A stretch of 64,000 bases of DNA, from contig CAZMTL010000003.1 in NCBI GenBank assembly GCA_964569575.1, positions 7,197-71,196 of the forward strand. Direction: 5' to 3'. A program made the translations under genes and the position numbers. The DNA is from an uncultured Gammaproteobacteria bacterium (lineage in GTDB: Bacteria; Patescibacteriota; Patescibacteriia; UBA9934). Of this stretch, positions 3,440 to 62,896 are shown one piece after another. A model generated the notes under the pieces. It saw only the letters and a program-made list of their open reading frames with translations. It had not been told where the DNA came from and made no database searches. Each line of letters begins with the position of its first letter. The first letter of the stretch is position 1.

Positions 3440-3466
3440 AAAACGCCGAGTAATCAGCGTTTTTTG
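3440..3466. terminator. hairpin AACGC-loop-GCGTT followed by TTTTT, on both strands
   Basis: Seen in sequence between tRNA-Leu and the MazG-like gene. Confidence 0.5.
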
Positions 3467-3550
3467 GTGGGCCGGGCGGGATTCGAACCCGCAAGGTCTT
3501 TCGACCAGGAAATTTTAAGTCTCCCGTGTATACCCTTCCACCACCGGCCC
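3465..3550 (-). tRNA. tRNA-Leu (anticodon TAA), long variable arm, CCA encoded
   Basis: The reverse complement gives GGGCCGGTGGTGGAAGGGTATACACGGGAGACTTAAAATTTCC...GGTTCGAATCCCGCCCGGCCCACCA. The anticodon loop is CTTAAAA. Confidence 0.85.
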
Positions 3551-4018
3551 TTATTTTCTATTCGCACCCCTATGCGTCGCCTTTAAGCTATGGCAATTGG
3601 GGCAAAGAACGCGCAAATTTTCCAAACGATGATCTCGCGAATCTCCATTAATGTGATCAAGCTCTAACGGCAGCCTACCATCGGCAGAAATCCGAGCCCA
3701 CCCGCATTCTTCACAATTTTGCGGCTTAAGTCTAGCGCGAAACAATCTTTTTTTCAATTTATACGTTTGGTACGAACTATTCTGGACCAAAATACTCTCC
3801 AATGGAATACGTGGAGAAAATTGTTTACTAACACCCTTAGACCAAGATCGACCAACAAAATGGGAAATATCAATATTATATAACTGCAAATATTTCTTAA
3901 TTTGAGAATAATTACCCCCTGCCTCCTTCAATCCAAGACACGTCAAAACCTGACGAATGCTTCTCGATTCCTTCACGGCCTTATCCAAATCAATTTTCGA
4001 CCATTTTCTAAGTCTCAT
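3551..4018 (-). CDS. HNH endonuclease (homing-endonuclease-like) directly abutting tRNA-Leu
   Basis: An HNH motif is present (ELDHINGDSRDHRLENLRVLCPNCHSLK). The stop codon is immediately adjacent to the tRNA 5' end. The start was taken at the internal ATG. Confidence 0.7.
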   Translation of the reverse strand: MRLRKWSKIDLDKAVKESRSIRQVLTCLGLKEAGGNYSQIKKYLQLYNIDISHFVGRSWSKGVSKQFSPRIPLESILVQNSSYQTYKLKKRLFRARLKPQNCEECGWARISADGRLPLELDHINGDSRDHRLENLRVLCPNCHSLKATHRGANRK

Positions 4019-4109
4019 ACTAGCAGAATAGCAAATGGCAGAGGTACAAACAAGACACAACACCAACCTCTGCCTAATAATAAAATCAAAGATTCAGTAT
4101 AATGAAGAC

Positions 4110-5160: not shown

Positions 5161-5497
5161 AAACCAACAAAATGCAATCACTCATCAAGGCAAGTTGAGA
5201 GTGGTCACGCACGAATCCTCCTCATCTTAAATCATCGTCATCTCGATCCTGATCCGGAATCCATCGCCTCTCAGACGCACTTCCTGCCCTTACCAAGGGG
5301 AGGTTCCGCACTGATCAAATGCGATCACCTCACCTTGTCGGCAAGCAAAACGTGGCAATCTATTCGATTGCGCAAGAGACGAGAGATTGCCACGTCGACT
5401 GCATCTCCTCGCAATGACAAAGTGAATTTCCACCCCTACTCCCTACCGCCGAAACACTACTCTCTCCTCTCCCTCCCCAACATGCTATAATCACCTC

Positions 5498-5758
5498 ATG
5501 ACCTTCCCACTCACCTACCTTCTCATTCTCTACGCACTTGCGGCATTTCTAGGATTTTTATTTACGTTCTTCAATGTCTTTCACATTGCAAAGTTTGGAT
5601 TACAATCAACCAAAACAAGCATCATCATCATGATCTACACCTTTGCATTTATTGGAATTCTAACGGTCAGCGGTCTAGCTATTCTCACGTTCAACTGGAA
5701 CGCCGTCATCGCTCTGCCAAACATTTTTTCGTTCGGAACACTTACGATAGGCCAATAA
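5498..5758 (+). CDS. small 3-TM membrane protein (86 aa)
   Basis: The protein is hydrophobic. An extended -10 (TGcTATAAT, 5483-5491) lies 6 nt upstream of the ATG, implying a leaderless transcript. Confidence 0.4.
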   Translation: MTFPLTYLLILYALAAFLGFLFTFFNVFHIAKFGLQSTKTSIIIMIYTFAFIGILTVSGLAILTFNWNAVIALPNIFSFGTLTIGQ

Positions 5759-6376: not shown

Positions 6377-7450
6377 CTACTGTCTGTCCCAGTCATACAC
6401 CTGCCAGGCCCAGCGAGCCAAACTCGCCGCGTCATCAAAGCTCTCGCGCCGCGAATCCCCTCCAAACAACACAATCAACACAGACTCATCATACGTCCCA
6501 TCCATCGGGTGCATGCGCACAACCAAATTCCATCCTGATTCGTTCAAATATCCAGTCTTCCCTGCGGTCACATACACATCATCATATGCACGATCGTACA
6601 GCAACCAATTCGTACTACTAATCGCGCGATCATATTCTGGATTACTGATACTCTGAATCTTCAAAGCTGATGTCCCCGAAAATCGTCGAACCGTTTCATC
6701 TTCAAAAATCTCACGCGCCATAAATGCCACTTCGCGCGCCGTTGAAACGTTTCCAAGCTCAATTCCAGTCGGATCAACAAACCGCGTGCGCCCCAAATTC
6801 ATCCGCTCCGCCTCGCTATTCATTCGCTCAATAAATGTCCCTTTCGAAAGTCCGCTCAATCGAGCCACCGCATTCGCCGCATTATTCGCCGAAGCAATCA
6901 ACGTCGCTCGCAACAAATCCATTGTATAAAACGTACTTCCCGAATTCGCATACAACTTTGCGCCCCCAACATCATCCGCATCCAACACATTCCCCACTCC
7001 GTACAAATCCAACCCTTGATCAATCGCCACTTTTGACGTCATCAACTTTGTAATCGAAGCGATCGGCCACAACTGCTCAGCTCCCTGCGCAGCTAAAATG
7101 TCACCAGTAGCATTATCGATCACAATATAATAATCCGATGTAACCGTAGGCACGGGTCGAGTAGAAACAAACCGAAGCGAGGGAACGGCCGGCGCAAACG
7201 CAGCTAATTCGGGATACTCTCGCCATCCGTACTGCCGAGCCCAATCCTCAACATCGATCAAAAACCCAGCCGCCGTTCCGGGAATCGCCCGCAACGTTTC
7301 AATCTCAAACGCCGCCTGCAAATCACCTCGCGATTCATACACCTTGCGCAAAACAGACGCGTCCTGAGCATGCACAAAACCAGGCGCAAACAATGCGGTA
7401 AAAAAACAAAGCGCTAATGCAGTTGAGGTAATACGCATACTTATCGCCAC
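6377..7450 (-). CDS. D-alanyl-D-alanine carboxypeptidase (serine-type, PBP5/DacC-like) with signal peptide
   Basis: SxxK (SITKLMT), SxN (SAN) and KTG (AGKTGY) motifs are present, along with an N-terminal signal peptide. Confidence 0.75.
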   Translation of the reverse strand: MAISMRITSTALALCFFTALFAPGFVHAQDASVLRKVYESRGDLQAAFEIETLRAIPGTAAGFLIDVEDWARQYGWREYPELAAFAPAVPSLRFVSTRPVPTVTSDYYIVIDNATGDILAAQGAEQLWPIASITKLMTSKVAIDQGLDLYGVGNVLDADDVGGAKLYANSGSTFYTMDLLRATLIASANNAANAVARLSGLSKGTFIERMNSEAERMNLGRTRFVDPTGIELGNVSTAREVAFMAREIFEDETVRRFSGTSALKIQSISNPEYDRAISSTNWLLYDRAYDDVYVTAGKTGYLNESGWNLVVRMHPMDGTYDESVLIVLFGGDSRRESFDDAASLARWAWQVYDWDRQ

Positions 7451-9279
7451 TTTTTCACTAAATCAACTCCTTGATAAAAATACATCAAAATCTCATCAAA
7501 CTTCTTCCCATCCTTCGCCATACAAAGCGCCCCCGAAGCCGGCATTCCTACTCCATGCCCCCACTGCGTCTTCCCCTTGTCACACGCAACCTCTACAGAC
7601 TTAATATACGGAATGTTGCCACTCCAAACCTGATTCCAATCCTTTGTTTTTCCATTCGATCGCGCAAAGTACGAAGCAAGCGCAACATCACCCTGGTACA
7701 TAATCGCCATACCACGCGTCTCTTCTACAGCTTTCACAATAGTTGGAGATCGTCTTTCTTGCTCATAACCGTTATACACCTGATCTTCCGACCAACTTAC
7801 CAAATGAACATGATCCTTCACGCGCTTGGTATTCCGGGTCCAGTGATAGAAAGCAAAACTTCGAGCAGCGGTGATCATTGACTTTTGATATTCATGATCA
7901 TCATTATTTGAAGTCTCGCCAAGCCCACGAAGGTAATACTCAATTTGCAATTCGTTGATCAACCAAAGACGATCTTTCGATTCCGAATACCGCAATTCGA
8001 GTACATTTCGAAATTCATTAAACGCGTGAATGTGCCCGCGTGTTGCTCTGCGATCAAAATTGGTCACCTTCATAACCGCATGATCAACTTCCGGAACAAA
8101 CCGCAAACCAGAAGTCGTCTGCTTCATCTCGCCATCAACCTCATAAAAATACACACCGTTTCGGTAATGCGCCGTCACCTTCTTTCCTTTTTTCACCTCT
8201 GCAAGCACAGCACCACTCAAATCAGTCACTGTAAACGCAGACTCCTCCGAAGTAATCACTACCTCATCATCCGTTTCTTCATCCACAATCAACACACCAA
8301 CACGTAAAACAGGTTGTTCAACAATCTGAGATTCATCAATTGCCTCCGCGACTTCTTCATCATCTCGAATCGGAGCCTGCGCAGCTTCGCCACTTCCACC
8401 TGTCACATCCACCGGAATACGAATCTCTCCACCTTCCACCAACTCACCATTCGCCTTCAAAGCGAAAACGGCAGCATGACTTCCATTTGTCGCCGGCGCC
8501 GTGAAGGCAAATTGCACAACACCCACTTCACCCGGCTTCACCGCACCCTCTCCAAGTCCAACGCGCGACCCAGACCACGAAAGATGCCTAAACGAAGTCA
8601 CTGCATTCGCCACACGTAAATCATCTTCGTACAAACCAAACTCGTTCCAAGTAGTTTTTCCGGTATTTGTAAACGCAACCGTAAACAACACCGGCTTTCC
8701 AGCAACCACCTTCACCTGATTCGCGCTTCGCATCGCCACTTCTGCCGACAAAGCACTCGAAGCGTCAGCATCATCAGTAGGAACCTCTGCAGTGGCGTCT
8801 TCCGAAACCGTAATAGCTAATTTCAATTCCGCGCCACCAATCCACGCCTTATTCTCGGAAGCCAACCAAAAAACCTCCTGATACTCCCCAACCTTGTCCG
8901 GCGCATGCAATTCAAACGACATAGTCGCAATAGCGCCCGGCACAACACTCGCCTGCTCAATTCGCTTCAACTGATCACCCCAAATCCACGTCCCTGGGTC
9001 GAACACACTTCGACGATACTTTGGCCCGTGCGTATACAGCGAAACAAATCCCGGGCCATCATTCTTCCAAGTCTCGGTACCTGTATTTTTAAATGAAACA
9101 TCTACCGTCACCTTTTCACCAGGAGCCATCGTAATCACACCATCATCCGTCACGCTTACAATTTCCGCTGCATACGCAGCTGCAAACGTAGGCTGAACAA
9201 AAGCAAATAAACTAACAAAAAACGCAAAGAACACCGCCACGCCAACAAGTCGAGTCGAAATAATAGATGAAGTAAACAT
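7441..9279 (-). CDS. SpoIID/LytB-domain protein with signal peptide and Ig-like repeats
   Basis: The C-terminal SpoIID-like region is ...ELQIEYYLRGLGE...AARSFAFYH. Confidence 0.6.
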   Translation of the reverse strand: MFTSSIISTRLVGVAVFFAFFVSLFAFVQPTFAAAYAAEIVSVTDDGVITMAPGEKVTVDVSFKNTGTETWKNDGPGFVSLYTHGPKYRRSVFDPGTWIWGDQLKRIEQASVVPGAIATMSFELHAPDKVGEYQEVFWLASENKAWIGGAELKLAITVSEDATAEVPTDDADASSALSAEVAMRSANQVKVVAGKPVLFTVAFTNTGKTTWNEFGLYEDDLRVANAVTSFRHLSWSGSRVGLGEGAVKPGEVGVVQFAFTAPATNGSHAAVFALKANGELVEGGEIRIPVDVTGGSGEAAQAPIRDDEEVAEAIDESQIVEQPVLRVGVLIVDEETDDEVVITSEESAFTVTDLSGAVLAEVKKGKKVTAHYRNGVYFYEVDGEMKQTTSGLRFVPEVDHAVMKVTNFDRRATRGHIHAFNEFRNVLELRYSESKDRLWLINELQIEYYLRGLGETSNNDDHEYQKSMITAARSFAFYHWTRNTKRVKDHVHLVSWSEDQVYNGYEQERRSPTIVKAVEETRGMAIMYQGDVALASYFARSNGKTKDWNQVWSGNIPYIKSVEVACDKGKTQWGHGVGMPASGALCMAKDGKKFDEILMYFYQGVDLVKKWR

Positions 9280-9628
9280 GAAACAAAAACAAGAGAGATG
9301 TTATGGCTAAAGTATACCGAATTTCACCCTCAAAAAATAGACGACTTTTCCACCGAAGATGAATTTTTCGCAACAGTTAACCAAATTCCTAAAACGATTG
9401 TTCAGGAACACAATTAGGCATCAAATATTCCCTCTCTACATGACGGTTCGGGGCCGTCACCAACAACACAATAATCACCACTCCCACAAGCACCAACACC
9501 GACAACAAAACAACGATCAATTTTTGAAACAAGGTCATAGGAAACAAGTATAGCAAACCCGTCATCGTTTATCCGCGACGGAAAAACACCTACCAAAAAA
9601 GCCCAAAAACCACTACACTAAACACACT

Positions 9629-13804: not shown

Positions 13805-14635
13805 CTAAAACAACTTCGCAGCAGCAAGAAAGAAAAGAATCGCGCCAATAACAGTATTTACAAACGGAAACACACGGTACACGGCAAAAATTCCACCTGA
13901 ACCTTTTACAAACGAAGCAATCATCAATGCCACATAGACACCCGCAAACACCACAGCAAAAATCGGATGATGTAACGCAAACAATCCACCAGCCGCAACA
14001 TACAACAACCCGCACAGCACCAACGTACGCGTAAACCCAAGTGCCGTTGCAATCGTACGCAGCTTTACCGCACGATCAGCCTCAATATCAGGAACAGCCG
14101 AATACGCATGCATCGCCATCGCCCACAAACACGCCGCAAAAACCAATTCAAATGGCGGAGCGACTTCCGAAACAAGAAACCATCCCACAAGCGCAGGACA
14201 AATATACAAAATGTTATACGCTGAATCCAAAAACGGCCGAGCCTTTGCACGAATAGGCGTCGCCGAATAAAAATACCCAAAAAAGAAAAACGCCGTTAAT
14301 GCCGCGACCGCAGAAGTGGGCAACAGAAAAAATAACGGCACAAAAGGCAACACACTCCACGCAATCGCACGCTTCAACCGCACATGATCCGAACGATCCA
14401 CCCGCACTTCATATGTCTGCTTCTTCGCATTCACCGCATCCGTCTCATAATCAAACAAATCATTTACGCCGTAAATGAACAAATTTGCCGGAAACGTAAA
14501 AAAGAGCGCTGCATACAGCAACAACGGATCAAGCAACATCTGAGCCGACTCAACCGAAGCTATCACCCCAATCGCAAACGGACCAAGTAAATACACCCAA
14601 AACCGAGGGCGACTAATCAAAAGTAAGGATTTCAT
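13805..14635 (-). CDS. UbiA-family prenyltransferase (lycopene-elongase-like; CrtEb/LyeJ-type candidate)
   Basis: NDxxDxxxD motif (GVNDLFDYETDAVN), a second Asp-rich motif (VPDIEADRAV) and 8-9 TM helices. It sits in the carotenoid gene neighbourhood. Confidence 0.6.
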   Translation of the reverse strand: MKSLLLISRPRFWVYLLGPFAIGVIASVESAQMLLDPLLLYAALFFTFPANLFIYGVNDLFDYETDAVNAKKQTYEVRVDRSDHVRLKRAIAWSVLPFVPLFFLLPTSAVAALTAFFFFGYFYSATPIRAKARPFLDSAYNILYICPALVGWFLVSEVAPPFELVFAACLWAMAMHAYSAVPDIEADRAVKLRTIATALGFTRTLVLCGLLYVAAGGLFALHHPIFAVVFAGVYVALMIASFVKGSGGIFAVYRVFPFVNTVIGAILFFLAAAKLF

Positions 14636-14657
14636 ACATCGAGTATACTATACCCGT
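14636..14657. promoter_or_regulatory. 22-bp divergent spacer with overlapping palindromic -10 boxes (TATACT on both strands) 6 and 8 nt from the two ATGs
   Basis: The spacer is acatcgagTATACTATAcccgt, and no Shine-Dalgarno is present on either side. Leaderless initiation is inferred. Confidence 0.5.
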
Positions 14658-15383
14658 ATGAAACACCGCATAATCACCGCAACAATCATCCTCTCGGCCA
14701 TCAGCGCCTTTTTCACGTACAAATTCATTCAGGAATCACCCACATTTCTCACCCCAATCTTCATCGCCGCCATCGCCCTACCAACCATTATCGGCCTTTG
14801 GAAGTCCTTAAAATGGCGAGGACTAGCGCTCTTCCTCGCGCTCGGTGCATTCGCCTGCGCAATCGAAACCATCGGCATCATCACCGGATTCCCTTACGGA
14901 GAATTCACCTACTCAAACGCACTCGGCGCAAAATTATTTGGCACAACACCCTTCCCCGTCTTCTTCGCCTGGTCGCCTCTCGTATTCGGATCGCTCGCCC
15001 TCGCGCAAATCACAACCAAAAAAATCACCTCACAATTTCTTCTCGCCCTAGCACTCCTCATCACCACCGATCTCATCCTAGACCCCGGCAGCGTCGCCCT
15101 CGGTTTCTGGACATGGAAAAACCCAGGCGCGTACTATGGCGTTCCGCTCATCAACTACCTCGGATGGATCATCTCGGGATCGATCGGCATCGCGATCGCA
15201 CAAGCGATGCAAAAACATCATGAACACAAAAGAGCGTCAGCAAGCACATGGATTATTCTGCCGCTGCTGTTCAGCATCTATTTCTGGACCGCAATAAATA
15301 TTCTTGTCACAAACAGCATTCCAGCCATACTAGGCATCGTTTTCTCAGTAATCACGACCGTACTATTCTACAAAAAAATATGA
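14658..15383 (+). CDS. carotenoid biosynthesis membrane protein (Caroten_synth/DUF422, CruF-like candidate carotenoid 1,2-hydratase)
   Basis: About 7 TM helices and a GFPYGEFTY motif. The stop overlaps the photolyase start (ATGA). Confidence 0.45.
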   Translation: MKHRIITATIILSAISAFFTYKFIQESPTFLTPIFIAAIALPTIIGLWKSLKWRGLALFLALGAFACAIETIGIITGFPYGEFTYSNALGAKLFGTTPFPVFFAWSPLVFGSLALAQITTKKITSQFLLALALLITTDLILDPGSVALGFWTWKNPGAYYGVPLINYLGWIISGSIGIAIAQAMQKHHEHKRASASTWIILPLLFSIYFWTAINILVTNSIPAILGIVFSVITTVLFYKKI

Positions 15384-16732
15384 TCGACCCACGCCGAATC
15401 CGCTCGCACAACACACATGAATACAAAAATGGTCCAGTCATCTACTGGATGGACCGCGACATGCGCGCCTCGGACAACTGGGCGCTTCTTCACGCAGCCG
15501 AGCTCGCAAAAAAACACAACGCCCCTCTCGCCGTCGTCTACAATTTAGTCACGGATTTTTTAGGCGGCGGCGCAAGACAACTCGACTTCAAACTCCGCGC
15601 ACTCGAATTGCTGGAAGAAATGTTTCAAAAGAAACACATCTCGTTCACCGTTCTTGTAACAGACGATTCAACAAAAGACCTTCAGGATTTTTTCAAGAAA
15701 ACAAAAGCTGGCTGCATCGTAACAGACTTCTCTCCACTAAAAATCCAACGCAAATGGAAAGCTGAGCTCGCAAAAACGCTCACCGTTCCCTTCCGCGAAG
15801 TCGACACACACAACATCGTGCCTGCTTGGGAAGCATCGAACAAAAAAGAATTCGGAGCCTACACCATCCGACCAAAAATCCACCGCCAACTTAGCGATTT
15901 TCTTGTTGAATTTCCAAAACTCACAAAAACCGAATCGATTTCCCCGCCAACAAAAAACAATTGGACCGAATGGAAAAAATTAATTGGCACTCACCCAACG
16001 CCCCTCACCCTTCCCGCCGGCGAAACAGCCGCAAAAAAAGCGCTTCAGCACTTTTTCAAAAACCGCCTACGAGGCTACGCCGAAAAACGAAACGACCCAA
16101 CGCTCGACGGCCAATCAAACCTGTCACCCTATCTCCACTACGGCCACATCAGCACTCAACGCATCGCGCTCGAACTCAAAAAAGAACACTCGCCACTCGA
16201 AGACAAAGAAGCATTTTTCGAAGAACTTGTCGTCCGAAAAGAACTGGCCGATAATTTTTGCTACTACGAACCCAACTACGATTCCACAAAAGGATTCCCG
16301 ACCTGGGCAAAGCAAACCCTTCTCGACCACGCAAACGACGAACGCGCATTCCTCTACACCAAAAAAGAATTCGAACAGGCAAAAACACACGATCAGCTCT
16401 GGAATGCGGCTCAAATGGAAATGGTGCTAACCGGAAAAATGCACGGCTACATGCGCATGTACTGGGCAAAGAAAATTCTCGAATGGACAAAATCACCAGA
16501 CGAAGCGATGAAAATCGCCATCTACCTCAACGACACCTACGAACTAGACGGCCGCGATCCAAACGGGTACACCGGAATTTCGTGGTCCATCGGCGGCACC
16601 CACGACCGAGCCTGGGGCACCCGTCCAATCTTCGGCAAAATCCGCTACATGAACGACAAAGGCGCAAAGCGGAAATTTGATGTTGAAGCGTACGTAAATA
16701 AATGGATGGGAACGGGCGGATTAGGAATATAA
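15380..16732 (+). CDS. class II CPD (deoxyribodipyrimidine) photolyase
   Basis: The N terminus is GPVIYWMDRDMRASDNWAL. The C-terminal class II signature is WSIGGTHDRAWGTRPIFGKIRYMNDKGAKRKFDVEAYV. Confidence 0.8.
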   Translation: MIDPRRIRSHNTHEYKNGPVIYWMDRDMRASDNWALLHAAELAKKHNAPLAVVYNLVTDFLGGGARQLDFKLRALELLEEMFQKKHISFTVLVTDDSTKDLQDFFKKTKAGCIVTDFSPLKIQRKWKAELAKTLTVPFREVDTHNIVPAWEASNKKEFGAYTIRPKIHRQLSDFLVEFPKLTKTESISPPTKNNWTEWKKLIGTHPTPLTLPAGETAAKKALQHFFKNRLRGYAEKRNDPTLDGQSNLSPYLHYGHISTQRIALELKKEHSPLEDKEAFFEELVVRKELADNFCYYEPNYDSTKGFPTWAKQTLLDHANDERAFLYTKKEFEQAKTHDQLWNAAQMEMVLTGKMHGYMRMYWAKKILEWTKSPDEAMKIAIYLNDTYELDGRDPNGYTGISWSIGGTHDRAWGTRPIFGKIRYMNDKGAKRKFDVEAYVNKWMGTGGLGI

Positions 16733-16785
16733 ACACGAAACCTCCCTTCCGTCCTTCGCTAAAGCTTCAGAGGACCCCCCCGTAG

Positions 16786-16915
16786 CCTTGGCGAAGGTGG
16801 GTAGTCCTCATTGTGGATCTAAGAAGGAGGGGAAACGCGTTTTGATTTTCGCCGAAAGACCCCTCCTCACCTCCCCTTGGTAAGGGGAGGAAACGCTTCG
16901 AGCTCATGCTCTCCC
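16786..16915. repeat. GC-rich palindromic repeat element, copy A (core tgtggatctaagaaggaggggaaacgcgttttgattttcgccgaaag plus hairpin ctccccttggtaaggggag)
   Basis: Its reverse complement is about 85% identical to the element at 63880-63929. Confidence 0.6.
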
Positions 16916-17267
16916 CTACGAAGAGAGACGAAGTCGAACGCCAGCGGAGCTCAACAAGCTGTGACAAAGAAAACGTGTAACTAAATCACTGTAACAAAAT
17001 CAGCGAAGGTCGAGCATTTTTCTCGTGTCTGCGGAGAGGGCTTGACCCTCGGAGACAGACATTGCAAAGAAAAATGCGATCGGTCACTTTCCAAAATTTA
17101 AAAATAAATGTTCGTGCCGCCGAGCCAGGAAAGGCTCTTTCTTTTGCCTACTTCTCTTTGAGCCAGCAAAGAAAAGTAGGTCGGGGTTCGGGGGTGAAAC
17201 TCCCGATCGTTGTGACAAAGTCGAAGCGACGCAGTCGCCTCAGACTCGCGCGCGATCGATCAGCGCG

Positions 17268-17342
17268 TAACCACCCCTCACCCCTCCTTGCGGATCTGAG
17301 AAGAAAGGGAAGCGCGTTATGATTTTCGCTCGAAACAAAAAA
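17268..17342. repeat. GC-rich palindromic repeat element, copy B
   Basis: tgcggatctgagaagaaagggaagcgcgttatgattttcgctcgaaac is about 80% identical to copy A. Confidence 0.6.
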
Positions 17343-17486
17343 GCGATGGATCCCAGCCTGCCCGGCCTTTAGTGCCGGGGATCAGGTCCGGGATGACAAA
17401 TATTTAGAACAATCAAAAAAACGACGCACGCGCTCCCGAAAGAACACGGCGTCGTCAGAAACAGGATCCAAAAATCCACCCTCACC

Positions 17487-19001
17487 CTAAACCTCATTCA
17501 ACGGCCCCGCCGTCCCATCCCCCACCATCCTTTTATAAACCAACTCCGCACTAATCAAACACGTCGGCATCCCGATTCCCGGATTTGTACTGGCTCCCAC
17601 ATAGTACAAATTCGGAATTTTTTTACTCACCGTATCTGGTCGAAAAATAGCCGTCTGAAAAAACGTATGCGCTAACCCGAGAGCCGTCCCTTTAAACGAA
17701 TTGTATCGCTCTTCAAAATCCCGTCCCGAAAAAATCCGTTTATAACAAATCCGCTCCCGCAAATTTGCAATCCCCATATCGCGCTCCATTCCCTCCAACA
17801 CCTTTTCTGCATACGCTTCAAGCAACGCATCATCTTCTTCCATCCCCGGCGCAATCGGCACCAGCACAAATAAATTCTCCTTCCCTGCAGGCGCCACAGA
17901 ATCATCCGTTACACTTGGCGCGCACACGTAATACGAAGGATCATCCGGCCATGTTGGTTGATCAAAAATCTGACCAAAATTTTTCTTCCAATCTTTCGAA
18001 AACACTAAATTATGATGAACCACTTCGGGAATCTTCCCTTCTACTCCCAAGTACAAAATAAACGCTGAAGGCGAAAGCACACGCTTTTCCCAATACGCAT
18101 CCGTAAACGAACGATGCGACGCGTCGAGCAGCTTCGTTTCAGTAAAATGAATATCGGCATTCGACACAACTTCATCCGCAAAATGTTCTTCTCCATTTTC
18201 GAGTCGAACACCAACAGCCCGACCATCCTTCACCAAAATCGTCTCCACCGCCGCCGAAGTCCGAATCTGAACCCCATGCTTTTGCGCAATCTTCACAAGT
18301 GCCTCGATAATCGTATAAATCCCACCCATCGGGTAATACACACCCATATTGAAATCGATGTGACTCATAATGTTATACAAAGCCGGCGTGTTATAAGGCG
18401 AGCTTCCCAAAAACACGAGAGGGTACTGCACAATCTTCTGCACTTCGTCGGTTGAAAAAAACTTCGACACATACCGCTGCATACTAGAAAAAACCGACAA
18501 CTTCGGACCCTGTGTCATCACCTCCCAAGTAAGAAAATCAAAAATGTTGCGATAATTTTTATACATAAACCGCTGCGTCGCAATCGCATATTGCTTTTCG
18601 GCCCGCGCCAAATAATCACGCATGCGATCGGCACTTCCAGGCTCCAACTTCTCGAGCGTCGCTGCATCACGGCTCATGTCTGAAAAAATCTCTACCTCTT
18701 TGCCGGTATCTTTAAAAAAGATTTTATAAGAAGGCTCCAATCGATGCAGCTGCAAATGATCTTCCACGCGCTCACCCATCAACCGAAAAAACTGCTCAAA
18801 AATATCGGGCATCAAATACCACGAAGGTCCCATATCAAATCGAAATCCTTCCGCCTCAAACACACTTGCTCGACCGCCAGGCGCTTCGTTCTTCTCAAAC
18901 ATCTGGACTTTGGCTCCAGCTTTACCAAGCAAACAAGCAGCCCCTAGTCCACCAAACCCCGAACCAATTACGATTACGTTCTTTCCTTCAAGCTTTGCCA
19001 T
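17487..19001 (-). CDS. crtI: phytoene desaturase CrtI
   Basis: N-terminal FAD fold (KNVIVIGSGFGGLGAACLL) consistent with the CrtI family. The start at the internal ATG overlaps the crtB 3' end by 28 nt. Confidence 0.8.
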   Translation of the reverse strand: MAKLEGKNVIVIGSGFGGLGAACLLGKAGAKVQMFEKNEAPGGRASVFEAEGFRFDMGPSWYLMPDIFEQFFRLMGERVEDHLQLHRLEPSYKIFFKDTGKEVEIFSDMSRDAATLEKLEPGSADRMRDYLARAEKQYAIATQRFMYKNYRNIFDFLTWEVMTQGPKLSVFSSMQRYVSKFFSTDEVQKIVQYPLVFLGSSPYNTPALYNIMSHIDFNMGVYYPMGGIYTIIEALVKIAQKHGVQIRTSAAVETILVKDGRAVGVRLENGEEHFADEVVSNADIHFTETKLLDASHRSFTDAYWEKRVLSPSAFILYLGVEGKIPEVVHHNLVFSKDWKKNFGQIFDQPTWPDDPSYYVCAPSVTDDSVAPAGKENLFVLVPIAPGMEEDDALLEAYAEKVLEGMERDMGIANLRERICYKRIFSGRDFEERYNSFKGTALGLAHTFFQTAIFRPDTVSKKIPNLYYVGASTNPGIGMPTCLISAELVYKRMVGDGTAGPLNEV

Positions 19002-19843
19002 AAAAGCGGTGCAATAAATAAACATTTTTCAAAAAAACTAGTACGTGCGCGACCAAGAAACGGGTTACAATCCTGCGCCTCTAACTTCTCCAAAATCGCT
19101 TCGTACAACCTAGACGCCACGCGCACAGAAAACCGACCACCTCGATTGAGCATCGGAATCCCCAGGTCCGCCTCGCGATACAGTGCCCGAGCACGAGCGA
19201 TTTCAAACTGCATCAACTGCTTAAACGCGTCATCAAAACGTCGTTCAACAATCTGCTCACGCGTCACTCCGAAACGCTTCAAATCTTCTTCCGGCAAATA
19301 AACGCGCCCGCGTTCAATCATGTCCTCGTCCACATCTCGCAAAAAATTCGTCAGCTGCATCGCGTATCCAAGCGCTTCAGCATACCCAAGCGCACGCGCG
19401 TCCGAATACCCAATTACATACGTCATCATCAACCCAACAACAGCCGCGGAACCATACATATAGCCTTTCAAATCTTCGTACGTGGCATAAGAATCTACAA
19501 ACACATCCTGCTCCATTGCATCCAAAAATGCTTCGCTATATTCAAACGGAATTCCATATCGCGAAAACACCTCCGCCGTCGCGCGCAAAACAGGGTGATC
19601 ACTCTCGCCCGTCGCATATGCACTTCGCCACTTCTCTCGCCACGCACTCAACTCCGCTCGAACATCTTCCTGCGTACGTTCACCTGCAAAATCAACAACG
19701 TCGTCTGGCACCCGAAAAAACGCATATAACACAAACGTCGCCTCGCGCAATTCACGCGAAAAAAACTTCGTCGCAAAATAATAACTCTTCCCATGCTTAC
19801 GATGAATCGCCTCGCAATACGCCACGTCAGTCGCAAGCAACAT
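18974..19843 (-). CDS. crtB: phytoene synthase CrtB (squalene/phytoene synthase family)
   Basis: YCEAIHRKHGKSYYFATKFF...FFRVPDDVVD and a second Asp-rich motif. Confidence 0.8.
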   Translation of the reverse strand: MLLATDVAYCEAIHRKHGKSYYFATKFFSRELREATFVLYAFFRVPDDVVDFAGERTQEDVRAELSAWREKWRSAYATGESDHPVLRATAEVFSRYGIPFEYSEAFLDAMEQDVFVDSYATYEDLKGYMYGSAAVVGLMMTYVIGYSDARALGYAEALGYAMQLTNFLRDVDEDMIERGRVYLPEEDLKRFGVTREQIVERRFDDAFKQLMQFEIARARALYREADLGIPMLNRGGRFSVRVASRLYEAILEKLEAQDCNPFLGRARTSFFEKCLFIAPLLWQSLKERT

Positions 19844-19844
19844 A

Positions 19845-20888
19845 TTACGAAAGTCGTTTTACAATCTTGCCAAGCAAATCCGAAAACTGACCGCGCAACT
19901 CATCCTTCACAGCACCACTGTCCAAAACAGATTTCGCCGACTCGAAATGACCATCCATAATCTGCCGTACGTTCTGCACAACGTCATTCTTTTCAAAAAA
20001 ATCCCGTAACTGCCCTCGCTCTTCTTCCCGAAAATCTCGTCCAAAAAATCCTTCAAAAAACTCCTTATCTTCCACACTTCCTTCCGACCGAATCTTCATC
20101 GACAAATACGTATGCTGACCATCTCGCACATCCGAAAACAATCGCTTTCCGGTCTTTTCCTCGTCCCCAATCACATCAAGTAAATCATCCTGAATCTGAA
20201 ACCCAATCCCAAGCTCACGCCCGAACGCATCAGCAAAAGCAAAGTAATCACCATTCAGCCCCGCAAGCGCAAACCCAATCCGCAACGGTCGCACAAACGT
20301 ATAACTCGCCGTTTTAAAATACATCTTCGCTAAAATATCTGCTTGCTCGGCCTGCGCGCTAGTCATCAAATCAACATCCAACATCTGACCAACGACCACT
20401 TCATCCATCATCATCCGCACCTCACGCCAAGCAGCTGCATTCGCACCAATCGAAGAATACAACGCATCCAAGGCCCATCCGAACACTAAATCACCTACTA
20501 ACACGGCCTGACTATTAGAAAGATGTCCCACGTCACCTCGCGCCTCGCGCGCAAGCATCGTCCGCAAAAAATACGCATGCACTGTCTCCTCCCCACGCCG
20601 CAACGCCGCACGATCAATCACGTCGTCATGAATCAAGCAAAACGCATGAAACAATTCAATCCCAACCAACGCCGAAACAATCTCTTCCCGCGACTTCCCG
20701 CCCGCCGTATACGCAAGTGCAATAATATAAGGACGAATCCGCTTCCCCGTCGCACTAATCCGCTGCACCCGCCTTAAAGCATCGAGCAATTCTTGATTGT
20801 CGGTCATTCCCGCCACCTCCAAAATTCGATCCGAAATCACCTCCGAAAACCGTGGATCAAACCACTCCCGAAATTCCTGTAGAGACAT
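19845..20888 (-). CDS. crtE: polyprenyl synthetase (GGPP synthase, CrtE/IdsA-like)
   Basis: FARM motif LIHDDVID and SARM motif GFQIQDDLLD. The start was taken at the internal ATG. Confidence 0.75.
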   Translation of the reverse strand: MSLQEFREWFDPRFSEVISDRILEVAGMTDNQELLDALRRVQRISATGKRIRPYIIALAYTAGGKSREEIVSALVGIELFHAFCLIHDDVIDRAALRRGEETVHAYFLRTMLAREARGDVGHLSNSQAVLVGDLVFGWALDALYSSIGANAAAWREVRMMMDEVVVGQMLDVDLMTSAQAEQADILAKMYFKTASYTFVRPLRIGFALAGLNGDYFAFADAFGRELGIGFQIQDDLLDVIGDEEKTGKRLFSDVRDGQHTYLSMKIRSEGSVEDKEFFEGFFGRDFREEERGQLRDFFEKNDVVQNVRQIMDGHFESAKSVLDSGAVKDELRGQFSDLLGKIVKRLS

Positions 20889-20988
20889 AGTGCACCAAAT
20901 ATAACAAAAAGAGGCAGATTTGGGAAAATGAAACAAATAAAAAACACCCCTTACTGCTCCTAATATTCAAACCAGAAACAAAAAGGGG

Positions 20989-21078: not shown

Positions 21079-21149
21079 AAAAACACCACCAAATTATCAC
21101 GACCACAAAAGTTGAGCAACGTACAACAAACCGAGTACAATAAAGCTAT

Positions 21150-26665: not shown

Positions 26666-26777
26666 ATTCCCGCCAAAAAACAAGAGGGGCCCCGAGCAGA
26701 ACACGCAGTCGCGCATTCAACTCAGAGCCCCGAAGCCCCGATCCCCACCACACGTAAGCGGTGAGGATATCAGACTT

Positions 26778-28835: not shown

Positions 28836-28940
28836 GTTGCACTCCACGCAGCTTAGCTGCATTTATGTTTCGGGATATTGAAGTAGAATGTGAAAGAATA
28901 TCCGCAATGCGGAACGCTAAAAAATAACAGATTTTAAGGC

Positions 28941-29011
28941 TTTTGTCAATGTTAAGTCATCAAAACAAACAAAGACTAATGAATGAAATACACGTGCCAA
29001 CATTGACAAAA
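28941..29011. promoter_or_regulatory. 13-bp inverted repeat TTTTGTCAATGTT ... AACATTGACAAAA in the AT-rich divergent promoter region of the island
   Basis: The two perfect arms are 45 bp apart. This is a candidate operator. Confidence 0.4.
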
Positions 29012-29077
29012 AGCATTTTTTCTGATAAATAAAGAGGTTCCGTAATTCACGGAAGCAAAACCACCAAGGAGTACATC

Positions 29078-29365
29078 ATGTTCCTGCTATTCCTCGGCAT
29101 CACCAGCGCAAACCCGCCCTCGCCCTTCGCGAAGGCGGAGGAGAACCTGGTGCTCACCGAAGCACAACGCAGCGAGATGGTATCGCTGCGTAGTCAGCGA
29201 GACGAGCTGGCAGACGAGCTGCTGAAGGCCCTGAAGGAAGTCGACCGGCTGAAGAGCCTGGTACAGACCACCGAAGCGGAGCGCGACAAGTTCAAAGGCA
29301 CGGCGAGCAAGTACGAGCAGTGCCAAGCGGCGCTGACCGACCTGCTCGAGGAGTGTGCCCAGTGA
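29078..29365 (+). CDS. small coiled-coil protein with hydrophobic N terminus (95 aa), island
   Basis: An AAGGAG Shine-Dalgarno sits 7 nt upstream. The sequence is heptad-like (LADELLKALKEVDRLKSLV). Confidence 0.4.
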   Translation: MFLLFLGITSANPPSPFAKAEENLVLTEAQRSEMVSLRSQRDELADELLKALKEVDRLKSLVQTTEAERDKFKGTASKYEQCQAALTDLLEECAQ

Positions 29366-29883
29366 ACGTCCTGTTCCTGCTGCTCGCGAACGCGTCGGCA
29401 AGCGACACGATCGACGAGCTGTGCAACAAGCATCCGGGTCTGCAGACCTGCGCAGCACGCGCAACTGCAGAGCACCCGTACTACATCTGCAAGGTGGGTC
29501 TTTCGCTGGAAGCGTTGAATTGGTCCGACGCCATCAGCGTCACCAACAACCCAAACGGCGAAATTGCGCTCGCCGTTGACGGAAACGAAGTGAAAATCGT
29601 AGACGTCAACAACAGGGCGCAGCTGGCCCAGACCGTCGACGGAACCTGGGTCTACATGCTGAAGCCCAGGCAGTCCTGCACCATGATGGTGCCCGCCCAG
29701 GACCAGTGGCAGGTCACCGCAACGAAGGTGGGCAGCAACAACAACGGCGGCACCATCGAAACGGAAGTGGTGGCCTGGCGCAGCGGTCGAGTACAGCTGT
29801 ACGCGACCTACACACAACCTCTCGGCGGCAGGGGCTACGGAAAGCACTGGGTGCTGACCCCAAGCCTGTTCAAGAAACCGTGA
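29362..29883 (+). CDS. secreted beta-rich hypothetical protein (signal peptide), island
   Basis: A GTG start overlaps the upstream stop (GTGA). The signal peptide is LFLLLANASA. Confidence 0.4.
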   Translation: MNVLFLLLANASASDTIDELCNKHPGLQTCAARATAEHPYYICKVGLSLEALNWSDAISVTNNPNGEIALAVDGNEVKIVDVNNRAQLAQTVDGTWVYMLKPRQSCTMMVPAQDQWQVTATKVGSNNNGGTIETEVVAWRSGRVQLYATYTQPLGGRGYGKHWVLTPSLFKKP

Positions 29884-29899
29884 ACGGCTCGCCGAAATC

Positions 29900-29947
29900 A
29901 AAAGCCCCCGACCACACGCTGTGCGGTCGGGGGCAATCTGTTTTTAT
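29900..29947. terminator. strong GC-rich terminator GCCCCCGACC-loop-GGTCGGGGGC + TTTTT
   Basis: The 10-bp GC stem sits at the island's right border and downstream of a pilin-like gene. Confidence 0.7.
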
Positions 29948-29950
29948 TAA

Positions 29951-30340
29951 CTAAGTAGTGGTAGCGTTTCCTAATTCGGTAATCACGAATTCCGAAATCG
30001 CATAAGCACTCAAGATGATCACTAAACCAATTACAGCTTGTACCAACAATTTCTTTGCTTTTTCAACGTTATCAGTATTACCAGCCGCCGTCATCCAAAG
30101 TCCACCAGCGTAAAGCACGAGAACTAAAAAGACGATTCCTAAAAAGCCCAAAACTGCCTGAATCAAACTTCCCAAAGTCTCCTCTAACGTTCTTCCACCA
30201 GAACCAAACGCCTCATCTCCGACATCGCTAAGTCCAGTTGTTAAATCAATCTGCGCTTGCGCAGGAGTACTAGCGAACAAACCTGCCAACAAAACAAATC
30301 CCACCGTCGGAACCGCTAAAAACTTTAATGCCAAATTCAT
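29951..30340 (-). CDS. VirB2/TrbC-topology pilin-like protein (T4SS pilin-like), paralog 1
   Basis: A signal peptide ending AQA is followed by a variable region. The C-terminal conserved two-helix module is LGFLGIVFLVLVLYAGGLWMTAAGNTDNVEKAKKLLVQAVIGLVIILSAYAI. Confidence 0.55.
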   Translation of the reverse strand: MNLALKFLAVPTVGFVLLAGLFASTPAQAQIDLTTGLSDVGDEAFGSGGRTLEETLGSLIQAVLGFLGIVFLVLVLYAGGLWMTAAGNTDNVEKAKKLLVQAVIGLVIILSAYAISEFVITELGNATTT

Positions 30341-30444
30341 AAATAAATTAAGTAATTACTCAATTAGTACTTCTAGTATAGCACGTTCAGCAACAACCTA
30401 AAGGATATCTGGGGATAGTCTTGAAACCGCGATCAAAACAGAGA

Positions 30445-30858: not shown

Positions 30859-30902
30859 AACGGAACGTTCGAAGAAAGTTCGAACGAACCGTCATGTGAC
30901 AA

Positions 30903-31316: not shown

Positions 31317-31340
31317 TGTTAAGGTTTATTAGACATGTTA

Positions 31341-31691: not shown

Positions 31692-31743
31692 ACAAGTATT
31701 ATAACATTAATACAAACACTCATGAACACGATTGTGTATATGT

Positions 31744-32232: not shown

Positions 32233-32272
32233 AAGTATAACACAACCGGTTCTCGGTTGTGTGAATGACTAT

Positions 32273-36756: not shown

Positions 36757-36851
36757 AAGAAGTCATCATACCAAAAACAAAAGAAAAGTCAATCAAAAAA
36801 ACAATCGCATTTAAACGATTGTTCTTCAAATAGACGATCAAACCACCCGAA

Positions 36852-38576: not shown

Positions 38577-38616
38577 ATGAAGCCATTATAACACAGGCAA
38601 ATATTTGCTATACTAA

Positions 38617-46454: not shown

Positions 46455-46519
46455 AAATGGCGTCTCTTTTCTCGAAAAAATTGAGAGAAGAGCGCGACGA
46501 CGTGAGTATTTTATACCAG

Positions 46520-46879: not shown

Positions 46880-46919
46880 ACAAACGAGCCCTAGTGGCTC
46901 ATTTGTTTTTGTATAATAA

Positions 46920-47267: not shown

Positions 47268-47273
47268 TTAGGT

Positions 47274-51295: not shown

Positions 51296-51389
51296 ATTGG
51301 GCGGAGTGTACGAAAAATAGGAGTGATTGTCAAAAGTCGCAAGCTTAAAATCAAGCAAATAAAAAAGAGAGCCCGCAGGCTCTTCTTTT

Positions 51390-62875: not shown

Positions 62876-62896
62876 TGTGTCGTATAATATATTTGT

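What the first reader, a model, noticed from the sequence alone, without database searches (positions are those of the whole stretch)
14636..14657. Overlapping palindromic -10 boxes in a 22-bp divergent spacer, part of a pervasive leaderless-start pattern
- The UbiA and CruF-like genes start 22 bp apart on opposite strands. The spacer acatcgagTATACTATAcccgt holds TATACT on both strands, 6 and 8 nt from the respective ATGs, with no Shine-Dalgarno on either side.
- A -10-like hexamer sits 6-9 nt upstream of the start codon at several other genes:
  - ruvB: TATAAT, 6 nt upstream
  - 5498..5758: TGnTATAAT, 6 nt
  - DUF1801 gene: TACAAT, 8 nt
  - rnpA: TATAAT, 8 nt
  - xerC/D: TATAAT, 8 nt
  - tig: TACACT, 9 nt
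  - flippase: TACACT, 9 nt
- This implies leaderless mRNAs are common in this organism.
- In contrast, the high-GC island and the gene after tRNA-Gly use Shine-Dalgarno sites, which supports their foreign origin.
Basis: seen in the sequence. Interest (0 to 1): 0.55.

Follow-up and report, generated by a model that had tools for sequence, protein, structure and literature searches.

The report
Shared promoter for two leaderless genes
Two carotenoid genes of an uncultured ultrasmall (CPR/Patescibacteria) bacterium start 22 bp apart on opposite strands and appear to share one small two-way promoter that sits right against both start codons. This is one case of a pattern across the window in which ribosome-binding sites are missing and promoters sit where they would normally be.

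Summary
The UbiA gene (13805..14635, -) and the CruF gene (14658..15383, +) are separated by 22 bp. That spacer holds the palindrome AGTATACT, which reads TATACT on both strands, 6 and 8 nt from the two ATGs. Neither side has a Shine-Dalgarno (SD) motif, and both start codons are backed by homologues.

The pattern is not chance.
- By a fixed first-ATG rule, 15 of 54 genes have TANNNT 6-9 nt upstream, against 5.0 +/- 2.1 in shuffles.
- Only 1 of 54 has an SD motif, against 45% of 728 non-CPR genes run through the same pipeline.
- The positioned hexamers are enriched for the extended -10 TGn.
- Two of them directly follow a terminator hairpin.

The organism is a Patescibacteria/CPR bacterium. 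In 29 related CPR loci, ruvB usually has a -10-like box 6-11 nt before its ATG. SD-free CPR loci show a sharp spike at a spacing of exactly 6.

My best reading is that leaderless or 0-3-nt-leader mRNAs are common here. The focal spacer would then be a bidirectional promoter with predicted start sites 23 bp apart, a distance already reported as preferred for such promoters. No transcription start sites have been mapped.

Both mechanisms are known. I found no paper in the held library that links leaderless mRNAs to CPR. I file this as a new member of a known kind, of moderate interest.

The parts
13805..14635 (-). UbiA-family prenyltransferase gene (LyeJ-like), start ATG at 14635
   Evidence: Pfam UbiA 4.7e-21. 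M1 aligns with M1 of three homologues. The public gene call uses the same start.
14658..15383 (+). CruF-like carotenoid hydratase gene, start ATG at 14658
   Evidence: Pfam Caroten_synth PF04240 2e-47. It is the only start candidate in the ORF. Homologues have the same length, 234-251 aa.
15380..16732 (+). Photolyase gene; its ATG overlaps the CruF stop (ATGA), so it is an operon-internal gene
   Evidence: Pfam DNA_photolyase. The gene call in L001 is 450 aa.
14636..14657 (.). 22-bp divergent spacer, the entire non-coding region between the two genes
   Evidence: Identical in the independent assembly L001.
14642..14649 (.). Palindrome AGTATACT formed by the two overlapping TATACT hexamers
   Evidence: Single occurrence in the window.
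14644..14649 (+). -10 candidate TATACT for CruF, 8 nt before the ATG (would favour a start at G 14656, a 2-nt leader)
14646..14651 (+). -10 candidate TACTAT for CruF in the canonical register (6 nt before the ATG, start site = A of ATG)
14642..14647 (-). -10 candidate TATACT for UbiA, 6 nt before the ATG (start site = A of ATG)
14647..14652 (-). Second -10-like hexamer TATAGT on the - strand, 11 nt before the UbiA ATG
14630..14663 (.). 8-nt inverted repeat TTTCATAC / GTATGAAA; both genes begin gtATGAAA, so the whole region is pseudo-symmetric
4098..4103 (+). TATAAT 6 nt before ruvB ATG 4110
   Evidence: RuvB homologues align from residue 1-10 of this start.
4025..4030 (-). TGcTATTCT 6 nt before the HNH-endonuclease gene ATG 4018
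5486..5491 (+). TGcTATAAT 6 nt before ATG 5498
9614..9619 (+). TACACT 9 nt before the flippase ATG 9629
20898..20903 (-). TGtTATATT 9 nt before the polyprenyl synthase ATG 20888 (head of the crt operon)
21136..21141 (+). TACAAT 8 nt before the DUF1801 gene ATG 21150
31698..31703 (-). TGtTATAAT 6 nt before the pilin gene ATG 31691
32234..32262 (-). Terminator hairpin (32262-32240) directly followed by TATACT (32239-32234), 7 nt before the pilin gene ATG 32226
36765..36792 (-). TTGACT-16-TGgTATGAT promoter, 8 nt before the cysteine desulfurase ATG 36756
38585..38614 (.). Second divergent pair with separate boxes: TGtTATAAT (-, 38590-38585), 8 nt before the VIT1 ATG 38576; TGcTATACT (+, 38609-38614), 8 nt before ATG 38623
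46886..46917 (+). rpmH terminator hairpin and T-run (46886-46910) directly followed by TATAAT (46912-46917), 8 nt before the rnpA ATG 46926
51305..51333 (-). TTGACA-17-TACACT promoter, 9 nt before the trigger factor ATG 51295
   Evidence: Trigger_N profile position 1 aligns with residue 1.
62883..62888 (+). TATAAT 8 nt before the xerC/D ATG 62897
28842..29071 (.). Contrast case in the high-GC island: SD GGAG (-, 28845-28842) 6 nt before ATG 28835, and SD AAGGAG (+, 29066-29071) 6 nt before ATG 29078, which lies about 45 nt downstream of a TTGACA-17-TAAATA promoter

Best explanation
**What it is.** The 22-bp spacer is a compact bidirectional sigma-70-type promoter. Its two -10 elements overlap on opposite strands within AGTATACTAT. 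RNA polymerase bound in one orientation starts the UbiA mRNA at or next to A 14635. Bound in the other orientation, it starts the CruF-photolyase mRNA at A 14658 or G 14656.

**What follows from that.** Both mRNAs have no leader or a leader of at most 2 nt, and no Shine-Dalgarno site. The ribosome would recognise the 5'-terminal AUG directly with initiator tRNA. The -35 position of each promoter falls inside the other gene and matches the consensus poorly, so these are -10-driven and probably weak promoters. Because the two polymerase footprints overlap, binding is mutually exclusive.

**Wider pattern.** This is the extreme case of how the organism is organised in this window. It is a Patescibacteria/CPR bacterium with essentially no SD sites. 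Roughly 30-40% of its genes carry a -10 box, often TGn-extended, 6-9 nt before the ATG.

**Shown:** the sequence anatomy, the start codons, the positional enrichment, the absence of SD, the TGn enrichment, the terminator-promoter-ATG packing, and the recurrence in relatives.

**Inferred:** the start-site positions, activity in both directions, and the leaderless mode of translation.
For: **Anatomy and starts:**

**Enrichment**
- 15 of 54 genes against 4.97 +/- 2.08 in shuffles.
- Annotation-free odds ratio 6.7, p = 3.6e-8, with no comparable effect at spacings of 10-29 nt.
- Hexamers matching TATAAT in at least 5 of 6 positions: 8 observed, 1.2 expected.

**Promoter nature**
- TGn precedes 6 of 20 positioned hexamers, against 8% of all TANNNT in the window (p = 0.004).
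- Full TTGACA-17-TACACT at tig and TTGACT-16-TGgTATGAT at 36756.
- Terminator hairpins run straight into the hexamer at 32262-32234 and 46886-46917.

**No SD**
- 1 of 54 genes in the window.
- 12% of 368 CPR genes and 45% of 728 non-CPR genes in the same pipeline.
- The top enriched hexamer at 5-9 nt is TATAAT in window plus CPR loci and AGGAGG in non-CPR loci.

**Lineage**
- The closest RuvB sequences are Patescibacteria at 62-70% identity.
- ruvB orthologues keep a -10-like box 6-11 nt from the ATG.
- SD-free CPR loci spike at a spacing of 6: 23 hits against 6.3 per position.

**Literature**
- Bidirectional promoters with shared or overlapping -10 elements prefer start-site separations of 18, 10 and 23 bp (PMC12825309). 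Here the two ATGs are 23 bp apart, and the canonical registers TACTAT (+) and TATACT (-) share their TA.
- A Pribnow box 6-8 nt from the start codon defines GeneMarkS-2 group C leaderless genomes (PMC6028130).
- About half of Parcubacteria lack the anti-SD motif in 16S rRNA (PMC9297842).
Against: - No transcription start site data exist for this organism.
- The focal hexamers lack TGn, and both -35 regions match only 2 of 6 positions, so they are among the weaker examples.
- The best + strand hexamer is 8 nt from the ATG, not the optimal 6.
- The palindrome alone is not statistically unusual.
- The short divergent arrangement is not conserved. In the nearest available homologues (46% identity or less) the two genes are convergent, co-directional, or divergent with an 84-bp spacer.
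- At least half of the SD-less genes lack a hexamer in this register. rpmH appears to have a leader of about 80 nt, so SD-independent translation of leadered mRNAs must also exist and could apply here.
- T at -1 is also frequent at operon-internal genes. That fits a signal read on the mRNA better than a leaderless transcript.
Confidence: 0.65

Rival explanations
1. The mRNAs are leadered and SD-less. The real promoters lie further upstream, inside the neighbouring coding regions. The mRNAs have ordinary 5' UTRs that lack SD and are translated through an SD-independent route (an unstructured A/U-rich region, S1, or a U at -1). The hexamers next to the ATGs would then be A/U-rich translation context rather than promoters.
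For: - Genes such as rpmH (TTGACA-17-TGaTATCTT about 80 nt upstream), the epimerase gene at 22338 and the gene at 7441..9279 have -10 boxes 25-80 nt upstream and no SD. The organism must therefore translate some leadered SD-less mRNAs.
- T at -1 occurs in 61% of starts, including operon-internal ones. That suggests an mRNA-level context signal.
- A weak promoter-like match lies inside UbiA on the + strand at 14424-14451.
Against: - TGn enrichment is a DNA-level contact with sigma factor and has no known role in translation.
- Terminator hairpins immediately upstream of the hexamer leave no room for an upstream promoter unless there is read-through.
- The spike at a spacing of exactly 6 in SD-free CPR loci equals the optimal -10-to-start distance (a start site 7 bp downstream of the -10 is reported in PMC12641261).
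- The match at 14424-14451 is no better than shuffled expectation: 4 found against 2.0 +/- 1.5.
Confidence: 0.2
2. The site is an operator. The pseudo-symmetric 34-bp region (TTTCATAC ... AGTATACT ... GTATGAAA) would be the binding site of a dimeric regulator, for example a light-responsive one, that controls the carotenoid and photolyase genes. The resemblance to -10 boxes would be secondary.
For: - The region holds a perfect 8-bp palindrome and a flanking 8-nt inverted repeat.
- In other bacteria, carotenoid and photolyase genes are often light-regulated. This rests on my general knowledge and was not tested here.
Against: - AGTATACT occurs only once in the window and not at the head of the crt operon at 20888.
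- The outer repeat is explained by both genes beginning gtATGAAA, and it is off-centre by 1 bp relative to the palindrome.
- Pfam finds no regulator gene among the adjacent genes.
- Any two overlapping -10 boxes on opposite strands produce a palindrome.
- This reading does not exclude the promoter reading.
Confidence: 0.08
3. The pattern is chance or composition. TANNNT hexamers near ATGs would simply reflect A+T-rich intergenic DNA and mis-assigned start codons.
For: - TANNNT is a loose motif, with 1205 occurrences in the window.
- Upstream regions are A/T-rich.
- Spacings of 0-3 nt are also somewhat enriched (odds ratio 4.2).
Against: - Dinucleotide shuffles of the same upstream regions never reach the observed count in 2000 trials.
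- Other spacings within the same regions give 2-5 genes per bin against 13-15.
- Non-CPR loci of similar GC content show no peak.
- Starts are validated independently by Pfam profile coordinates and homologue alignment.
Confidence: 0.05

Closest known systems
Bacterial leaderless-gene organisation (GeneMarkS-2 'group C': Actinobacteria, Deinococcus-Thermus; dRNA-seq in M. tuberculosis and D. deserti)
   Same: - A Pribnow-type -10 box 6-8 nt from the start codon of first genes in operons.
- No SD at those genes.
- 25-50% of operons affected (PMC6028130).
- Here 28% of genes meet a fixed rule, and about 40% after start refinement.
   Different: - The lineage is a Patescibacteria/CPR bacterium of about 46% GC. 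I found no paper in the held library that reports this for CPR.
- In group C genomes the remaining genes use SD. Here SD is almost absent altogether (1 of 54).
- The spacing mode in the window is 8-9 nt as well as 6.
- No start-site data exist.
Bidirectional promoters with shared or overlapping -10 elements (Warman et al. 2021; PMC12825309, PMC10268837)
   Same: - Pseudo-symmetric -10 sequence read on both strands.
- Divergent start sites 7-25 bp apart, with preferred distances of 18, 10 and 23 bp.
- The predicted start sites here are 23 bp apart, and the -12/-11 TA is shared in the canonical registers.
   Different: - In E. coli and Salmonella one of the two RNAs is often non-coding or antisense, and the mRNAs have leaders.
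- Here both products would be leaderless mRNAs, so promoter, both start sites and both start codons fit into 28 bp.
- Activity is predicted, not measured.
Loss of the anti-SD motif in a subgroup of Parcubacteria (Tsurumaki et al. 2022, PMC9297842)
   Same: The phylum is the same, and that paper infers that SD helices do not form. This matches the near-absence of SD motifs in the window and in 13 of 29 related CPR loci.
   Different: - That work examined rRNA and ribosomal proteins, not mRNA 5' regions, and does not mention leaderless mRNAs.
- The 16S rRNA of this organism is not in the window, so its anti-SD status is unknown.
Haloarchaeal and other bacterioruberin-type gene sets (lyeJ/UbiA-cruF-crtI)
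   Same: The gene content is the same: a UbiA-family elongase-like gene, cruF, crtI-like, crtB, a polyprenyl synthase, and a photolyase nearby.
   Different: - The arrangement of UbiA and CruF differs between relatives: convergent, overlapping and co-directional, or divergent with 84 bp.
- The 22-bp divergent spacer is specific to this genome among those retrieved.

Membership tests
Bacterial leaderless mRNA genes (group C signature) | -10 (Pribnow) motif about 6-8 nt upstream of the start codon, enriched over background at first genes of operons | tested here: met
   - 15 of 54 genes against 4.97 +/- 2.08 in shuffles.
- Odds ratio 6.7, p = 3.6e-8.
- By context: divergent 33%, same-strand gap of 26-100 nt 45%, gap of 25 nt or less 18%.
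Bacterial leaderless mRNA genes (group C signature) | No Shine-Dalgarno motif upstream of those start codons | tested here: met
   1 of 54 genes has GGAG, GAGG or AGGA at 4-12 nt. The non-CPR control is 45%.
Bacterial leaderless mRNA genes (group C signature) | Transcription start site coincides with the start codon (5' UTR of 0-5 nt) in primary-transcript mapping | not testable with these tools
   No RNA data are available. The indirect argument rests on the -10 spacing and on terminator hairpins directly before the -10 box.
Bacterial leaderless mRNA genes (group C signature) | Strong preference for AUG over GUG or UUG at leaderless starts | tested here: inconclusive
   All motif-bearing starts are ATG, but my gene-calling rule only considered ATG. 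The one profile-validated GTG start (dnaN, 44792) has no hexamer in register.
Bidirectional promoter with overlapping -10 elements | -10-like hexamers on opposite strands that overlap or share bases (pseudo-symmetry) | tested here: met
   TATACT on both strands overlaps by 4 bp. In the canonical registers, TACTAT (+) and TATACT (-) share TA at 14646-14647.
Bidirectional promoter with overlapping -10 elements | Divergent start sites 7-25 bp apart (preferred 18, 10, 23) | not testable with these tools
   The separation is 23 bp if both start sites are the A of each ATG, and 21 bp if the + start is G 14656. The preferred distances come from PMC12825309.
Bidirectional promoter with overlapping -10 elements | Transcription demonstrated in both directions | not testable with these tools
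   This needs in vitro transcription or start-site mapping.
SD-led translation initiation | Purine-rich motif complementary to the 16S 3' end, 4-12 nt upstream of the start codon | tested here: not met
   Absent on both sides of the spacer and in 53 of 54 genes. Present in the high-GC island genes.
Palindromic operator of a dimeric transcription factor | The same palindrome recurs at co-regulated promoters, and a cognate regulator gene is nearby | tested here: not met
   AGTATACT occurs once. It is absent from the head of the crt operon. Pfam finds no regulator among the neighbours.

The most novel reading that the evidence does not exclude
In the Patescibacteria lineages that have lost SD/anti-SD pairing, translation initiation would have shifted broadly to leaderless mRNAs. 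These would be made from -10-only promoters placed directly against the AUG. A conserved U at -1 and stop-start coupling would serve the internal genes. This would be a phylum-scale bacterial counterpart of the archaeal and actinobacterial leaderless mode, tied to the reduced CPR ribosome. The 28-bp dual-leaderless bidirectional promoter would be its most streamlined form. A practical consequence is that many public CPR gene starts would be wrong.
Probability: 0.4. Interest if true: 0.65.

Novelty: new member of a known kind. Interest (0 to 1): 0.45.

Why it matters
CPR/Patescibacteria make up a large share of bacterial diversity and are almost all uncultured, and how they start translation is not settled. 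[quoted passage not shown]

A sequence signature of leaderless transcripts gives a concrete hypothesis that metatranscriptome 5'-end mapping can test. The signature consists of -10 boxes, often TGn-extended, 6-9 nt from the ATG, recurring in relatives.

There is also a practical side. Gene callers that rely on ribosome-binding sites appear to over-extend N-termini here. ruvB is called 25 residues too long, and rnpA and the ORF at 38617 two residues too long. The -10 position could be used to correct CPR gene starts.

The focal locus shows how small a functional two-gene control region could be: 22 bp between the ORFs.

Tried and rejected
- **Source contig.** I tried to reach the rest of the 132.5-kb NCBI contig, to read the 16S 3' end, through the look-up of encoding contigs with XerC and PNPase. 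Neither is on record. Only a 2.85-kb Logan contig was returned for CruF.
- **Organism name.** The cluster look-ups gave no names.
- **Conservation of the spacer.** The closest CruF homologues are 46% identical or less, and their UbiA/CruF arrangement differs. Conservation of the 22-bp spacer could therefore not be tested.
- **Recurrence of short divergent spacers.** Among CPR loci only a handful have spacers of 25 bp or less (L004 and L009 at 20 bp). That is too few for statistics.
- **Consensus promoter scan.** The -35 plus -10 scan does not pick up the focal site, because it has no -35.
- **The palindrome as a stand-alone signal.** Rejected as not significant.
- **Literature.** Searches combining 'leaderless' with CPR, Patescibacteria, Saccharibacteria, Nanosynbacter and similar terms returned only reference-list or unrelated mentions. 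The TM7x transcript-start paper (PMID 35975994) and Warman 2021 (PMC7612053) are not held.
- **Gene caller artefact.** My greedy gene caller dropped CruF, because the photolyase ORF over-extends upstream. The focal + gene is therefore not among the 54 genes used in the statistics, which makes the count conservative.

Full report
**1. The observation**

The spacer 14636-14657 reads acatcgagTATACTatacccgt.
- On the + strand, TATACT (14644-14649) lies 8 nt before ATG 14658.
- On the - strand, TATACT (14647-14642) lies 6 nt before ATG 14635.
- The two hexamers overlap by 4 bp and form the palindrome AGTATACT (14642-14649).
- Two further registers exist. TACTAT on the + strand (14646-14651) is 6 nt from the ATG. 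TATAGT on the - strand (14652-14647) is 11 nt from the ATG.
- Neither strand of the spacer has an SD-like tetramer.

The flanking genes are a UbiA-family prenyltransferase and a CruF-type carotenoid hydratase (Pfam). A photolyase gene follows CruF, and its ATG overlaps the CruF stop codon.

Both start codons are secure. CruF has no other start candidate in its ORF. M1 of UbiA aligns with M1 of three homologues, just before the invariant SRPRFW motif. An independent assembly of the same organism has the identical spacer.

**2. Is it more than chance?**

I called genes with a fixed rule: the longest non-overlapping ORFs of at least 100 codons, with the start at the first ATG.
- 15 of 54 genes have TANNNT 6-9 nt upstream. 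In 2000 dinucleotide-preserving shuffles of the same upstream regions the mean is 4.97 (sd 2.08, maximum 14).
- Hexamers matching TATAAT in at least 5 of 6 positions: 8 observed, 1.2 expected.
- Bins at 12-51 nt in the same regions hold 1-5 genes.
- Without annotation, ATGs preceded by TANNNT at 6-9 nt are the first ATG of a long ORF in 20% of cases, against 3.5% otherwise (odds ratio 6.7, p = 3.6e-8). Spacings of 10-29 nt give odds ratios of 0.35-2.6.
- SD tetramers at 4-12 nt occur in 1 of 54 genes.
- The pipeline does detect SD where it exists. In 728 genes from Firmicutes, Chloroflexi and other loci fetched with the same query, 45% have SD and only 6% have the hexamer.

**3. Are the hexamers promoters?**

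Three independent features say yes.
- The extended -10 dinucleotide TG at -15/-14 precedes 6 of 20 positioned hexamers, against 8% of all 1205 TANNNT in the window (p = 0.004). After start refinement, 8 of about 22 have it.
- Some have full promoters: TTGACA-17-TACACT at tig and TTGACT-16-TGgTATGAT at 36756.
- In two places a terminator hairpin runs directly into the hexamer. Stem 32262-32240 is followed by TATACT 32239-32234 and ATG 32226. The rpmH terminator 46886-46910 is followed by TATAAT 46912-46917 and ATG 46926. Any transcript that starts after those terminators must begin within a few nucleotides of the ATG.

With 6-nt spacing the optimal start site is the A of the ATG. The start site is centred 7 bp downstream of the -10 in many bacteria (PMC12641261). 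With 8-9-nt spacing the seventh nucleotide is almost always a purine at -2 or -3. Leaders of 0-3 nt are therefore expected.

**4. The organism and its relatives**

The closest RuvB sequences (62-70% identity) are from Patescibacteria metagenome-assembled genomes: Uhrbacteria, Buchananbacteria and Parcubacteria. Tandem T4SS-pilin paralogues fit that assignment.

In 29 CPR ruvB loci the orthologous gene usually has a -10-like box 6-11 nt before its ATG and no SD, although the sequences are otherwise unalignable. Examples are TATAAT, TACAAT, TAAAAT, TAGAAT and CATAAT.

Pooled results:
- CPR genes show 24% hexamer and 12% SD.
- The 13 SD-free CPR loci have a sharp spike at a spacing of exactly 6: 23 against 6.3 per position, and 13 against 2.5 for strict matches.
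- An unsupervised hexamer ranking at 5-9 nt puts TATAAT first for window plus CPR loci and AGGAGG first for non-CPR loci.

**5. Mechanism proposed for the focal site**

If both transcripts start at the A of their ATG, the start sites are 23 bp apart. Warman and colleagues report that bidirectional promoters with shared -10 elements prefer start-site separations of 18, 10 and 23 bp (PMC12825309; PMC10268837).

In the canonical registers, the + hexamer TACTAT (-12..-7 relative to 14658) and the - hexamer TATACT (-12..-7 relative to 14635) share their TA at 14646-14647. This geometry gives the 23-bp separation. The better-matching + hexamer TATACT would favour a start at G 14656.

Both -35 positions lie in the opposite coding region and match poorly, and neither hexamer has TGn. 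I therefore expect weak, -10-driven promoters with mutually exclusive polymerase binding. The same authors find that competition matters only when one direction is activated. I take the translation mode from what is established for leaderless mRNAs in other bacteria: a 5'-terminal AUG recognised with initiator tRNA. That step was not tested here.

**6. What does not fit or remains open**
- At least half of the SD-less genes lack a hexamer in register.
- Some have -10 boxes 25-80 nt upstream, so leadered, SD-independent initiation must also occur. Examples are rpmH, with TTGACA-17-TGaTATCTT at 46610-46638, the gene at 22338, and the gene at 7441..9279.
- T at -1 is found at 61% of starts in both the window and the CPR loci. 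The comparison values are 15% of all ATGs in the window and 31% of starts in non-CPR loci. It is also common at operon-internal genes. It co-occurs with the hexamer (14 of 15 against 19 of 39) but is not explained by it alone.
- The divergent 22-bp arrangement is not conserved in the nearest available homologues.

**7. The contrast cases**

The high-GC island (about 26.7-29.95 kb, GC 0.55-0.63) contains genes with GC3 of 0.77-0.82. They have canonical SD sites at the right spacing: AAGGAG-6-ATG at 29078, and GGAG-6-ATG at 28835 on the - strand. A leadered TTGACA-17-TAAATA promoter lies upstream of the first. This supports a foreign origin and acts as an internal control. The gene after tRNA-Gly (ATG 2091, GC about 0.54) has only GGAG-5-ATG and no family match, so that evidence is weak.

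**8. Comparison with what is known, and novelty**

The window-wide pattern matches the definition of GeneMarkS-2 group C genomes, which have a Pribnow box 6-8 nt from the start of first genes in operons (PMC6028130). That group was reported as frequent in Actinobacteria and Deinococcus-Thermus.

Tsurumaki et al. found that about half of Parcubacteria lack the anti-SD motif and that CPR S1 proteins are short. They do not mention leaderless mRNAs (PMC9297842).

None of my searches found a paper in the held library that connects leaderless transcripts with CPR. The library is incomplete, so this is not proof of novelty.

I therefore classify the finding as a new member of known kinds: leaderless organisation and a bidirectional promoter. 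It is of moderate interest because of the lineage and because it offers an answer to what replaces SD in these bacteria.

**9. Verdict**
- Observation: confirmed.
- Interpretation: supported by every computational test available, but not proven without start-site data.
- Confidence that the spacer is a two-way promoter giving two leaderless or near-leaderless mRNAs: 0.65.
- Confidence that -10-adjacent starts are a real, common feature of this organism: about 0.8.

Noticed in passing
window-wide; e.g. 14657, 14636, 31692, 38577, 46925, 62896: T at position -1 of start codons ('TATG') occurs at 33 of 54 starts (61%), against 15% of all ATGs in the window. The figure is again 61% in 368 genes of CPR loci, against 31% in non-CPR loci. 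About 26 of 29 ruvB orthologues have it. It is also frequent at operon-internal starts, so it may be a Kozak-like translation context in SD-poor CPR and not only a start-site preference.
   Followed up: partly
window 13805-20888: A bacterioruberin-type carotenoid gene set sits with a photolyase in a CPR genome: UbiA/LyeJ-like, CruF, photolyase (15380-16732), crtI-like (17487-19025), crtB (18974-19843) and polyprenyl synthase (19845-20888). The closest CruF homologue is only 46% identical.
   Followed up: partly
window 26700-29950: A high-GC island (GC 0.55-0.63, GC3 0.77-0.82) holds a 685-aa - strand gene and two + strand genes with no Pfam or NCBIfam match. It has SD-led starts, an A/T-rich divergent promoter region (28.86-29.07 kb) and a strong terminator at 29903-29945. 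It lies directly next to five tandem T4SS-pilin paralogues (29951-32226).
   Followed up: partly
window 43650-47540: The replication origin region lies inside the window: dnaN (43650-44792, GTG start), dnaA (45027-46439), DnaA-box-like TTATCCACA motifs at about 46.52-46.61 kb, then rpmH (46727-46879), rnpA and yidD.
   Followed up: partly
window 1-42000 versus 44000-64000: There is a very strong strand asymmetry (GC skew about -0.3, AT skew about +0.2) over 1-42 kb, whatever the gene orientation. It fades to about 0 beyond the dnaA region without a clear sign reversal.
   Followed up: no
window 4035/4110, 46920/46926, 38617/38623: Public gene calls use upstream ATGs for ruvB (+25 aa), rnpA (+2 aa) and the ORF at 38617 (+2 aa). 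Versions starting at the -10-compatible ATG are not in the protein collection. N-terminal over-extension may be systematic in CPR annotation.
   Followed up: partly
window 46610-46727: rpmH seems to have a canonical TTGACA-17-TGaTATCTT promoter about 80 nt upstream and no SD. This indicates SD-independent translation of a leadered mRNA in the same organism.
   Followed up: no
window 47569-49365, 61614-62150, 54957-56483: Several validated starts have a -10-like hexamer only 2-4 nt from the ATG. An example is TATACT-ttt-ATG at bipA, whose start is confirmed by Pfam profile coordinates. That is too close for a leaderless transcript from that box and remains unexplained.
   Followed up: no
window 3465-4018: An HNH endonuclease gene (3551-4018, -) lies immediately upstream of tRNA-Leu (3465-3550, same strand) and is divergent from ruvB.
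   Followed up: no
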